IMG/VR virus record: IMGVR_UViG_3300005253_000053
Origin: a virus
Lineage: Duplodnaviria; Heunggongvirae; Uroviricota; Caudoviricetes
Strand: one strand, 5' to 3'
Length of the DNA stretch: 64,000 bases
Shown here: positions 41,611 to 44,263 of the stretch, piece after piece
How the letters are laid out: the number at the start of each line of letters is the position of its first letter
Position numbering within the stretch: position 1 is the stretch's first letter
The notes under the pieces: generated by a model
The model's input: only the letters and a program-made list of their open reading frames with translations
Told to the model about the DNA's origin: nothing
Databases searched by the model: none
Made by a program: the position numbers and the translations under genes

Positions 41611-44263
41611 CTGCTAAAGCCTCCTGGTAGAATTCGACTGCCGCCTTGTTGGTCTTGACATAGCTCGGGTCGAGCCGCTGCGCCAGTGACAGGCCTTCGA
41701 TATTGCGCGCCCGTGACAGCGCCACGTAGGCGTGCCCAGCCTCGAAGCAGCTTCCGAGGTCGCAGTGCATGTACTCCAGGGTCATCCCCTGACTGTTGTG
41801 ATTAACAAACCCGTTACCTATGTAGCTGTGATCCTCCGGGACATGCAGATCAAACACCTCTTTGCGGCAACGCCGAATCGATACGACTCGGTCTACAAAC
41901 CACCCGTTTAAGCGCCAGTCCACGACCCGGGAGAACGCAGGGAACTTAGACCTGTCATTGGTAGCCTCGCAGGCGAACCCAGCCAACGAACCAAGGTGCC
42001 TGTGCGTAATCCGAACACCCTGCCGAACACCCTGCCGAACGCTGTTACGGAACTTTTTCGCTGCACCCTGAGGCAGGTGCAAGCGAACCGACTTACCGTA
42101 GGATCGGCCGTAGACCTGCTTCAATTCATCCATTGCTTCCGTTACCCAGGAGGAAGCATCTGGAATACCGCCAAGTTCAGACTTAGGTAGCCTGAAGACA
42201 TCCGGCCGCCAACAAGGGGGAAACCGCTTCTTGAGGGCTGCCATTTTCCTGTCGACTCGGAAGCCTATGCCCGCGTAGAAACGGGTCGCGTCACTCAGAT
42301 TAGTGATGTTGACCCGCCATGCCCGCTCTGTGAGTTCCGATACTTGGGATAAGATCCCCAAGTTTAGAAGCAGCGTCTGAACCTCAGACGCAAGAACACG
42401 TGAACTTGTAGTCAGGTGTATCCCAGAACTGTTTACTCCGCCGTCGGTGTCATACAATCCACGCAGGAACGATGCCTGCACAGCAATTGAACCTTGCAAA
42501 ACAGAAGCCGGAACAGACTTCGACGGTGCCTTGCTGTATCCCAGACCCAGGTGTTCAAGAAAGACACGTACCCCGCGACAATGAAAGTAAGCTCGTGGGA
42601 CTTCCCTACCCCTGTTCAACGTCACGGGAACACAAAACACGCTCTCTACAAAAGACTGAAAAAATTTCAGAGGCTCAACGTCACCCGAAGTGACCTCTAC
42701 CCGTCCCTCAGCCTCATCCGTGACACAACCGTCACCAACTAAGACACCGAGGAACTCTGCCAACGGGAGTGTCAAGGAGCTAGGAAGAGAGTACTCGTGA
42801 TCGTTCCCGTTGTAGTCGGGCTTCCTATCGAAAGCTAGGATAGAATCAGATCCTTCACTCTTGGTTCCGGAACGCATCAACAACGCGTCACCCTGCGTGA
42901 TGTCAGGTGCCAACTTCCAGTCAAACTGACCAGGAGACTGAACAGCGCGGAGCGGATGGCGAGGGCTCACCGTAATGGATACCCCGCGCTCTGTAGTAAT
43001 TTCGTAACAGTCCTCAACCACTCCTCGAAAAACCTGATTGGCACCACGCACACCAGCCTCTGTAAACACTGCGATCCCGGGATCACGGCAGGACGCAGAC
43101 CCAAGGTTGGCACCCGCTATGTCTTGTATTCTTCGCAAACCTGAGCATGTTGCGATGAGTGTGTCCCCGGCCACACACTTGTGGATCGTGAGTGCCCAGG
43201 CCAGCTTGAGCGGGTACTGCATCATGGCGGCCAGGACGCTGCCGTTGCTGCCCTGGACCTCCCAGGATGCGATCTCGACCGGGACGACGTGCCCGTTGAG
43301 CTTCTCCACGTCGATGATCGGGTACCGGACCTTCTTGACGACGCCGCGCGTGCCGTTCACGTAGCCCATCATCGGGTTGTTCTTGACGAAGATGACCGGT
43401 GCGCCCTCCTTCAGGTAGAGCACGTGCTCGGCGATGCAGTTCTTCTTGAGGTTCGCGTAGTGTTTCTCCAAGCCGATGTAGTCGGCATCGAAGGCGTGGG
43501 GCTTGCCCGGAAGCTGGGCGAGCTTCCCGCCGTTGATGTCGCGGACCATGTTGTTGGTGGCGAACAGGCGCGTGGGCTCCTCGGCGAGATCCCGGTTGAC
43601 GCACTCGTCGAAGAACTCGACCGTATCCTGGCTGACCTGACCGCGCCGGATGGCGAGCAGGTGCATCAGGAAGTCGTTGTCCTCCTGCCGAAACACCTTG
43701 GTCAAGTAGCACAAGTTGAGATCCGCTTCGTGCCACGCGTCCGCGTCGTAAGCGAACACGACGTCCGCCTCCTGGCCAGGGATCTGGACCGGGGGAAGCT
43801 GAAGGAAGTCGCCGCAGAGGATCAGTTGGAGCCCGCCGAAGGGCTTGTCCCGCCTGCGGACCTTCCGGAGCCAGAAGTCCATCATGTTCATGTAGTCGCC
43901 GGTCAGCATCGAGACCTCGTCGATCACCAGCACATGCGCCTCAGTCATCCGCCGGTCGGCGTTGGCCCGGATAATCTTGAGCCCGCCTTGGTTCAGCGAC
44001 TCCTGGATGCTCTTGACGGTGCCCCGGATGGCTGTGCCCAGCCAACTGTGGATCGTGCGGCCCGACACGTTCACGGCCGCGATGCCCGTCGAGGCCGTGA
44101 TGGCGACCTCTTTGCCCTCCACCCGGAGGTCGCGCACGATCTCCCGCAGCAACACGCTCTTGCCTGTACCGGCCGGTCCAGTGATGAGGATGTTGTAGCC
44201 GCTCATCGACGCGCGGTAGGCACGCTGCTGGTCATTCCCGAGTTTTATGAGTCCGCTTGGCAT
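41603..44263 (-). CDS. Dda/Pif1/RecD-family DNA helicase interrupted by an intein
   Basis: Walker A [10 protein letters not shown], Walker B [9 protein letters not shown]; the TIHK/SQG helicase motif is split: ...[12 protein letters not shown] ... FVNHN|[9 protein letters not shown]. Confidence 0.75.
   Translation of the reverse strand: [886 protein letters not shown]
41795..43177 (-). mobile_element. intein with LAGLIDADG homing endonuclease (aa 363-823 of the helicase ORF)
   Basis: N-terminal splice junction Cys (CVAGDT), C-terminal HN followed by Ser +1; two LAGLIDADG-like blocks [11 protein letters not shown] and [11 protein letters not shown]. Confidence 0.65.

What the first reader, a model, noticed from the sequence alone, without database searches (positions are those of the whole stretch)
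41795..43177. Intein with LAGLIDADG endonuclease splitting the TIHKSQG motif of a Dda/Pif1-like helicase
The helicase motif is interrupted exactly at ...WALTIHK / [10 protein letters not shown] ... FVNHN / SQGMTLEYM: a Cys-1 start, a terminal HN plus Ser+1, and two LAGLIDADG-like blocks ([22 protein letters not shown]) inside. Removing aa 363-823 restores a 425-aa helicase with a canonical TIHKSQG motif.
Basis: partly seen in the sequence, partly recalled or inferred. Interest (0 to 1): 0.6.

Follow-up and report, generated by a model that had tools for sequence, protein, structure and literature searches.

The report
Homing intein inside a phage Pif1 helicase
A phage DNA-helicase gene is interrupted, exactly inside one of its catalytic motifs, by a standard self-splicing protein element (an intein) that carries its own DNA-cutting enzyme; the call is correct, but this kind of element at this very site is already common in public data.

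Summary
Confirmed, and ordinary. ORF 41603-44263 (- strand, 886 aa) is a Pif1-family SF1B helicase.

The insert passes the curated thresholds of four models: intein_Nterm, intein_Cterm, Pfam Intein_splicing and LAGLIDADG_3. All canonical class-1 splicing residues are present: Cys1, SxxH, block F Asp and His, His-Asn, and Ser+1. Both LAGLIDADG acidic residues are present too. Its predicted structure best matches endonuclease-bearing archaeal VMA inteins and PI-PfuI.

Removing the insert gives a 425-aa helicase that aligns without a gap to intein-free homologues of 72% and 70% identity. One of these lies on a syntenic contig. GC3 is 0.56 in the insert against 0.91 in the N-extein, which marks the insert as foreign DNA.

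The site is a widely used intein site. Of the 150 best relatives among 1.84 billion representative proteins, 75 carry an intein at the same xHK|C…HN|[S/C]Q[G/S] point. Pectobacterium phage CB7_80 does too, and its LAGLIDADG intein is already published.

Verdict: a new member of a known kind. Splicing and homing are inferred, not shown. Interest is low.

The parts
41603..44263 (-). Precursor gene: Pif1-family SF1B helicase with an in-frame intein (886 aa, ATG start, TAA stop)
   Evidence: PIF1 8.9e-37, Pif1_2B_dom. One search finds the identical protein called as one gene on marine-sediment metagenome contigs.
43178..44263 (-). N-extein, aa 1-362. Holds helicase motifs I (GPAGTGKS 44156-44179), II (DEVSM 43907-43921), III (GDFLQLPPV 43787-43813), IV (VFRQ 43685-43696) and the first half of motif V (TIHK 43178-43189). 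GC3 is 0.906.
41795..43177 (-). Intein, aa 363-823 (461 aa). GC3 is 0.557, so it is compositionally foreign.
43139..43177 (-). Splicing block A: [13 protein letters not shown] (Cys1 nucleophile)
   Evidence: intein_Nterm covers aa 363-439. Cys1 is invariant in 77/77 allelic inteins.
42944..42988 (-). Splicing block B: [15 protein letters not shown] (S71-x-x-H74, the Ser variant of TxxH)
   Evidence: Ser in 70/77 and His in 77/77 of the inteins at this insertion site.
42269..42769 (-). LAGLIDADG homing-endonuclease domain. Motif 1 is [15 protein letters not shown] (42719-42763, Asp149). Motif 2 is [15 protein letters not shown] (42431-42475, Asp245).
   Evidence: Pfam LAGLIDADG_3 2.8e-19. The model shows two alpha-beta-beta-alpha-beta-beta-alpha units. 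Foldseek matches I-DmoI at TMt 0.71-0.74.
41909..42253 (-). Helical region between the endonuclease core and the C-terminal splicing strands. Model confidence is lower here. It contains a 12-nt tandem duplication (RQGVRQGV, 42014-42037). A role as an accessory DNA-binding or linker region is inferred only.
41795..41866 (-). Splicing blocks F and G: [24 protein letters not shown] (Asp443, His450, His460, Asn461)
   Evidence: intein_Cterm 30.4 bits. Asp is 77/77, penultimate His 76/77 and Asn 77/77.
41603..41794 (-). C-extein, aa 824-886, plus the stop codon. Starts with the Ser+1 nucleophile. Holds the second half of motif V (SQGMT 41780-41794) and motif VI (YVALSRAR 41705-41728).

Best explanation
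This is a canonical class-1 intein with an embedded double-motif LAGLIDADG homing endonuclease. It sits in frame in motif V of a Pif1-family SF1B helicase of a large, tRNA-rich tailed phage from a marine-sediment metagenome.

Inferred mechanism, from established intein chemistry: the 886-aa precursor is translated as one chain. Cys363 makes the N-S acyl shift. Ser824 attacks the resulting thioester to form the branched intermediate. Asn823, assisted by His822, cyclises to release the 461-aa intein. An O-N shift then seals ...TIHK-SQG..., giving the active 425-aa helicase.

At the DNA level, the free intein's LAGLIDADG domain is predicted to cleave intein-less alleles around ...ACNATCCACAAG|AGYCAGGGNATGAC.... 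Recombinational repair would then copy the intein into them (homing).

Shown here: the anatomy, the family membership, closure of the extein, the foreign composition, and the existence of empty and occupied alleles. Inferred: actual splicing, endonuclease activity, and the target site.
For: - Exact junctions and one uninterrupted ORF.
- Four curated profile thresholds passed.
- All catalytic residues are present and match a family of 77 inteins at the same site.
- The AlphaFold model has pLDDT 85 and pTM 0.87. Its best PDB matches are the TliVMA intein 7qss (E 1.4e-26, TM 0.68/0.72), PI-PfuI, PI-TkoII and PI-SceI. Sequence hits to 7qss, 1dq3 and 1am2 agree.
- The spliced extein gains motif-V-spanning Pfam hits: UvrD_C_2, and Herpes_Helicase at aa 344-400. 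It matches ScPif1 and hPIF1 end to end.
- Intein-free homologues P0001 (72%) and P0002 (70%) read ...[18 protein letters not shown]... with no gap. P0001 lies in the same gene order, DUF1643 - HhH - helicase - two small ORFs.
- The DNA around the empty site is 65/72 identical to the window's joined junction.
- GC3 is 0.557 in the intein against 0.906 and 0.778 in the exteins.
- The nearest allelic intein, P0152, is 46.6% identical in the intein but only 29% in the extein, as expected for horizontal spread.
Against: - No experimental evidence of splicing or DNA cleavage exists for this intein or for any at this site. The CB7 authors state that splicing was not tested.
- Block B has Ser instead of the textbook Thr, although this is the norm for this site (70/77).
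- No intein-free copy of this same phage was found, so recent homing in this lineage is inferred from composition and from relatives of about 70% identity.
- Roughly a quarter of allelic inteins have lost a LAGLIDADG acidic residue. Endonuclease decay is therefore common in the family and cannot be excluded here on sequence alone.
Confidence: 0.93

Rival explanations
1. The intein splices but is immobile. Protein splicing works, but the LAGLIDADG endonuclease is inactive, or no longer has targets, so the element is now inherited only vertically.
For: About 20/77 and 14/77 allelic inteins have lost the first or second catalytic Asp, and some are shortened to 249-375 aa, so decay is frequent. 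The intein carries a 12-nt tandem duplication in its helical region. No empty allele of the same phage was found.
Against: Both catalytic Asp residues (149 and 245) are intact, and the double alpha-beta-beta-alpha-beta-beta-alpha core is modelled with high confidence. GC3 has not moved towards the host's 0.9, which argues for recent arrival. Near-identical target DNA exists in related helicases.
Confidence: 0.25
2. The intein is dead and the gene is disrupted. The insert no longer splices, so the helicase is a non-functional pseudogene-like fusion.
For: Nothing beyond the absence of experimental data and the Thr-to-Ser change in block B.
Against: All nucleophiles and assisting residues are conserved. 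There is no stop or frameshift in 2661 nt. Extein motifs I-VI are intact and 70-72% identical to those of the intein-free relatives. Ser in block B is the family consensus.
Confidence: 0.04
3. The insert is not an intein. It would be a free-standing or intron-encoded LAGLIDADG endonuclease gene, or a non-splicing Hint/BIL domain, that happens to be in frame.
For: LAGLIDADG genes also occur in group I introns and as free-standing phage genes (general knowledge; CB7 has many HNH examples).
Against: Hint blocks A, B, F and G flank the endonuclease and reach curated thresholds. The insert begins with Cys, ends with His-Asn and is followed by Ser. It is in frame with no internal start/stop structure. 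The whole-insert fold matches bifunctional inteins.
Confidence: 0.01

Closest known systems
LAGLIDADG intein in the putative helicase CB7_80 of Pectobacterium phage vB_PatM_CB7 (also phiTE_030 and PcCB7V QQG33389; genus Certrevirus), reported in PMC7344957
   Same: The insertion point in motif V of an SF1B helicase is identical...ITGHK|CVSKNSL...LIVHN|CQGLTL.... It also has a Hint domain plus a LAGLIDADG endonuclease, and it sits in a large tailed phage.
   Different: It is 370 aa against 461 aa here. Its +1 residue is Cys, not Ser. Overall identity is about 29% by tblastn (32% in the MAFFT alignment). The host phages are unrelated: Enterobacterales soil phages of about 50% GC against a roughly 60% GC marine-sediment phage.
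Metagenomic inteins at the same helicase motif-V site (for example P0152, P0153, P0154 and the RecD2-like P0121)
   Same: The same xHK|C…HN|[S/C]Q[G/S] junctions occur in 75 of the 150 best representatives. They share the block-B Ser signature and a median length of 443 aa.
   Different: The best is only 46.6% identical. The host helicases are 23-47% identical to this one. None is annotated or studied.
P-loop inteins of PhoH, MutS-like and terminase-like ATPases (PhoH and UvrD/RecD inteins are catalogued in Novikova et al. 2016, PMC4760082)
   Same: They show full-length similarity of 27-32% to this intein, the same domain order, Lys at -1 and Ser/Thr at +1.
   Different: They are inserted in the Walker A motif (GxGK|S/T), not in helicase motif V.
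Structurally solved endonuclease-bearing inteins: Tli/Pho VMA (7qss, 7qst), PI-PfuI (1dq3), PI-TkoII (2cw7), PI-SceI (1vde)
   Same: They share the bipartite Hint plus double-LAGLIDADG architecture. Foldseek E-values run from 1e-26 to 1e-11, with sequence E 8e-10 to 7qss.
   Different: Their hosts are archaeal or yeast proteins (V-ATPase, RNR, DNA polymerase). Sequence identity is 12-18%. This intein has an extra helical segment of about 115 aa before block F.

Membership tests
Class-1 (canonical) intein | Cys/Ser/Thr nucleophile as first intein residue (block A) | tested here: met
   Cys363 is intein residue 1. It is invariant in 77/77 allelic inteins. intein_Nterm scores 27.6 bits against a cut-off of 24.5.
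Class-1 (canonical) intein | Block B TxxH motif | tested here: met
   The motif is S71-P-R-H74. His is invariant. Ser replaces Thr in 70/77 inteins at this site, so it is a conservative family-wide variant.
Class-1 (canonical) intein | Blocks F and G ending in His-Asn, followed by a Cys/Ser/Thr +1 extein residue | tested here: met
   The sequence reads ...[22 protein letters not shown]. intein_Cterm scores 30.4 bits against a cut-off of 15.6. Asp443 and Asn461 are 77/77 and His460 is 76/77.
Class-1 (canonical) intein | Hint fold formed by the N- and C-terminal segments | tested here: met
   Pfam Intein_splicing scores 39.9 bits against a cut-off of 35.8. In the AF2 model the terminal beta-strand regions have pLDDT above 90. 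Foldseek top hits are bifunctional inteins.
Class-1 (canonical) intein | In-frame insertion in a conserved host motif, whose removal restores a contiguous host protein | tested here: met
   The spliced product aligns without a gap to intein-free P0001 and P0002 and to ScPif1 across TIHKSQG.
Class-1 (canonical) intein | Autocatalytic protein splicing | not testable with these tools
   This needs expression and detection of the ligated product. It has not been reported for any intein at this site.
LAGLIDADG homing endonuclease (monomeric, double-motif) | Two LAGLIDADG motifs, each ending in a catalytic acidic residue | tested here: met
   The motifs are [11 protein letters not shown]149G and FLRGLYDTD245G. 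Pfam LAGLIDADG_3 scores 69.6 bits against a cut-off of 22.5.
LAGLIDADG homing endonuclease (monomeric, double-motif) | Pseudo-symmetric pair of alpha-beta-beta-alpha-beta-beta-alpha folds | tested here: met
   Model elements are H137-149/E/E/H167-181/E/E/H201-209 and H231-245/E/E/H260-272/E/E/H294-303. I-DmoI matches at TMt 0.71-0.74.
LAGLIDADG homing endonuclease (monomeric, double-motif) | Site-specific cleavage of the intein-less allele | not testable with these tools
   Candidate targets exist: the L005 and L006 empty sites are 65/72 identical to the junction, and 14 metagenomic loci match.
Pif1-family SF1B helicase (host protein) | SF1 motifs I-VI, the Pif1 signature region between motifs II and III, and the 2B domain | tested here: met
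   Pfam PIF1 is 2e-37 and Pif1_2B_dom 1.4e-10 on the spliced protein. Motifs were located. The segment [32 protein letters not shown] aligns to the ScPif1 signature region; 5o6b scores 7e-72.
   The 'Dda-like helicase' family phrog_325 does match at 3.3e-64. However, the PDB hits at E<=1e-5 are named PIF1/Pif1 or carry generic names (AAA ATPase, TPR domain protein, Helraiser, a putative deoxyribonuclease), with no Dda chain among them. The Pfam best hit is PIF1.

The most novel reading that the evidence does not exclude
Hundreds of uncultured phage and bacterial SF1B helicases carry an intein at motif V with a conserved Ser-type block B. The most novel reading not excluded is that this intein is kept as more than a parasite. 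It could act as a conditional, for example redox- or metal-sensitive, post-translational switch. Such a switch would hold the Pif1 helicase inactive until a particular stage of infection, in the way proposed for the mycobacterial DnaB inteins (PMC6195587, PMC7360933). Nothing here tests this reading, and nothing excludes it.
Probability: 0.07. Interest if true: 0.5.

Novelty: new member of a known kind. Interest (0 to 1): 0.22.

Why it matters
Mostly for annotation. The gene should be called as one intein-containing Pif1 helicase, with a 425-aa mature product, not as a long "helicase" or as split genes.

There is modest wider value. The survey shows that motif V of SF1B helicases (xHK|SQG) is a heavily used intein site in metagenomic data. 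The inteins there have a Ser-type block B, and their nearest other relatives sit in Walker-A sites that share the Lys(-1)/Ser-Thr(+1) context. This adds to the known clustering of inteins in ATPase active sites.

The intein and its endonuclease could also serve as raw material for protein-engineering or genome-engineering tools, but nothing about them looks mechanistically new.

Tried and rejected
- Megablast of the gene against 50,697 phage records found no match, so no close cultured relative exists.
- tblastn of the intein against the whole window found no second intein. Pfam scans of ten other large ORFs found none either.
- I searched for an intein-free copy of the same phage using the joined-junction DNA pattern. 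IMG/VR gave 0 hits. JGI metagenomes gave 14 loci, but all are distant helicases of 30-48% aa identity. A presence/absence polymorphism within this phage is therefore not shown.
- I asked whether the lower GC3 of the C-extein (0.778) reflects a co-conversion tract. The intein-free L006 has the same value over the same 63 codons, so this is inconclusive and was dropped.
- I asked whether the CTA-anticodon tRNA signals TAG recoding. TAG ends about a third of high-GC3 ORFs, so this window gives no support.
- I looked for RecD intein insertion sites in the supplement of Novikova et al. 2016, but the file is not held.
- A literature search for intein + Pif1 + bacteriophage returned 0 papers.

Full report
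**Observation.**
The region lies in one uninterrupted ORF, 41603..44263 on the - strand (886 aa, ATG start, TAA stop). The junctions read ...[23 protein letters not shown]... and ...[23 protein letters not shown].... The insert is aa 363-823, nt 43177..41795, 461 aa, and removing it leaves 425 aa.

**Is the insert an intein?**
Profile searches say yes, at curated thresholds:
- NCBIfam intein_Nterm covers aa 363-439 at 27.6 bits (cut-off 24.5).
- NCBIfam intein_Cterm covers aa 802-824 at 30.4 bits (cut-off 15.6).
- Pfam Intein_splicing scores 39.9 bits (cut-off 35.8).
- Pfam LAGLIDADG_3 scores 69.6 bits (cut-off 22.5).
- Weaker local hits go to intein-containing GyrA, DnaB, RFC, RNR and V-ATPase models.

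Sequence search of the PDB finds the VMA intein 7qss (8e-10), PI-PfuI 1dq3 (1e-6) and the Mxe GyrA intein.

An AlphaFold2 model was built on 26 homologues and has pLDDT 85.3 and pTM 0.87. It shows N- and C-terminal beta-strand segments forming the Hint module. These flank two alpha-beta-beta-alpha-beta-beta-alpha units, followed by a less confident helical segment (aa 309-423).

Foldseek against the PDB ranks endonuclease-bearing inteins first. These are TliVMA 7qss (E 1.4e-26, TM 0.68/0.72), PI-PfuI, PhoVMA, PI-TkoII and PI-SceI. The endonuclease core matches I-DmoI at TMt 0.71-0.74.

**Catalytic residues.**
All residues of the class-1 splicing pathway are present:
- Cys1.
- Block B S71-x-x-H74.
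- Block F Asp443 and His450.
- Block G His460-Asn461.
- Ser+1.

Both LAGLIDADG motifs keep their acidic residue, Asp149 in LVGDG and Asp245 in DTDG.

I aligned 77 inteins that occupy the same site. Cys1, block-B His, block-F Asp and the terminal Asn are invariant, and the penultimate His is 76/77. Block B has Ser in 70/77, so the departure from textbook TxxH is a family trait, not a defect. The two endonuclease Asp residues are kept in only 57 and 63 of the 77. Endonuclease decay therefore occurs in the family, but this copy is intact.

**The host protein.**
The spliced 425-aa protein is a Pif1-family SF1B helicase:
- Pfam PIF1 is 2e-37, with the Pif1 2B domain also found.
- PDB best hits are S. 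cerevisiae Pif1 5o6b (7e-72) and human PIF1 5fhh/6hph (about 4e-69). The alignment runs straight through ...LAWSLSIHKSQGQTL....
- No Dda chain appears among the hits, so 'Pif1-like' is the better label.
- Motifs I-VI are all present, and the intein splits motif V between Lys362 and Ser824.
- After in-silico splicing, new Pfam matches appear that span the junction: UvrD_C_2 at aa 354-392 and Herpes_Helicase at aa 344-400.

**Empty alleles.**
The closest homologues in a database of 5.8 billion proteins are intein-free. P0001 (431 aa, 72% identity) and P0002 (426 aa, 70%) both read ...[18 protein letters not shown]....

P0001's contig has the same gene order as the window: DUF1643 protein, HhH protein, helicase, then small ORFs of about 172-185 aa and 82 aa. 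The 72 nt around the empty site are 65/72 identical to the window's joined junction in both L005 and L006.

**Foreign origin and mobility.**
GC3 is 0.906 in the N-extein, 0.778 in the C-extein and only 0.557 in the intein, against a window GC of 0.596. The intein-free homologues have GC3 of 0.91 and 0.83.

The most similar allelic intein, P0152, is 46.6% identical in the intein but only 29% in the extein. Meanwhile the most similar helicases lack the intein. Both patterns fit horizontal acquisition by homing.

The 32-nt degenerate site pattern occurs in 14 JGI metagenome loci. These encode helicases only 30-48% identical in protein. The target DNA is thus conserved far beyond the gene family's average, as expected for a catalytic motif and a good homing site.

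**How common is this?**
A full phmmer scan of 1.84 billion representatives with aa 340-860 gave 7393 hits at E<=1e-3 and 268 at E<=1e-30.
- Of the best 150, 75 have both junctions at xHK|C...HN|[S/C]Q[G/S] in Pif1-like or RecD2-like helicases. Their +1 residue is Ser in 49 and Cys in 26. Their intein length is 249-498 aa, median 443.
- In cultured phages the same site is occupied in Pectobacterium phages PcCB7V, phiTE and CB7, and in a human-gut phage scaffold.
[quoted passage not shown] It is shared with phiTE and its splicing was not tested (PMC7344957).
- Novikova et al. 2016 catalogue inteins in PhoH, UvrD and RecD (PMC4760082).
- Outside helicases, the nearest relatives (27-32% identity over the full length) sit in Walker A motifs. 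Examples are PhoH (GTGK|C...HN|S/T), a MutS-like protein and terminase-like proteins. They share the Lys(-1) and Ser/Thr(+1) context.

**Context.**
The window is part of a tailed-phage genome recovered from a marine-sediment metagenome. It encodes:
- a TerL-like protein and a T4-type portal;
- SbcCD-like proteins, a UvsX-like recombinase and an SSB-like protein;
- a family A DNA polymerase;
- 36 tRNA genes.

No second intein was found.

**Verdict.**
The observation and the interpretation are both right. The element is a standard bifunctional intein at a site that is already populated in public data and reported once in the literature. Splicing and homing remain inferences from conserved chemistry. 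It is a new member of a known kind and of low interest, apart from correct annotation and a small addition to the picture of intein clustering in ATPase motifs.

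Noticed in passing
window 33491-39379, 45958-46034, 51084-54254 (- strand): There are 36 tRNA genes in 64 kb, all on the - strand, in three arrays. This is an unusually large tRNA complement for a phage fragment.
   Followed up: no
window 45958-46034 (-): This tRNA has a CTA anticodon, the amber-suppressor type, which ARAGORN labels tRNA-Pyl. TAG still terminates about one third of the high-GC3 ORFs in the window, so there is no sign of general TAG recoding here.
   Followed up: partly
window 52523-52603 (-): ARAGORN reports a 'tRNA-???' with a two-base anticodon. It could be an aberrant or frameshift-suppressor-like tRNA, or a false call.
   Followed up: no
window 30611-33388 (-): This 925-aa ORF matches Pfam MVP_shoulder (5.8e-28) and Vault_3 (1e-8), which are major-vault-protein domains. 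It has no PHROG match. That is unexpected in a phage genome.
   Followed up: no
window 42014-42037 (-): A perfect 12-nt tandem duplication (CGGCAGGGTGTT x2), encoding RQGVRQGV, lies inside the helical region of the intein.
   Followed up: partly
window 41603-41794 vs 43178-44263: The C-extein GC3 (0.778) is lower than the N-extein GC3 (0.906). I asked whether this is a co-conversion tract from homing. The intein-free homologue L006 shows the same 0.778 over the same 63 codons, so the result is inconclusive.
   Followed up: yes
proteins P0155, P0164, P0169, P0201, P0205 and others: Many relatives of this intein lie in very long metagenomic proteins of 1500-2600 aa that carry several inteins each. 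The sites include P-loops and RNR-like or polymerase-like positions (...APTG|C...AISK|C...ATNP|C).
   Followed up: no
window 16077-20081 (-): Two large glycosyltransferase-domain proteins (435 aa and 802 aa; GT1/GT4 families) lie next to the packaging genes.
   Followed up: no
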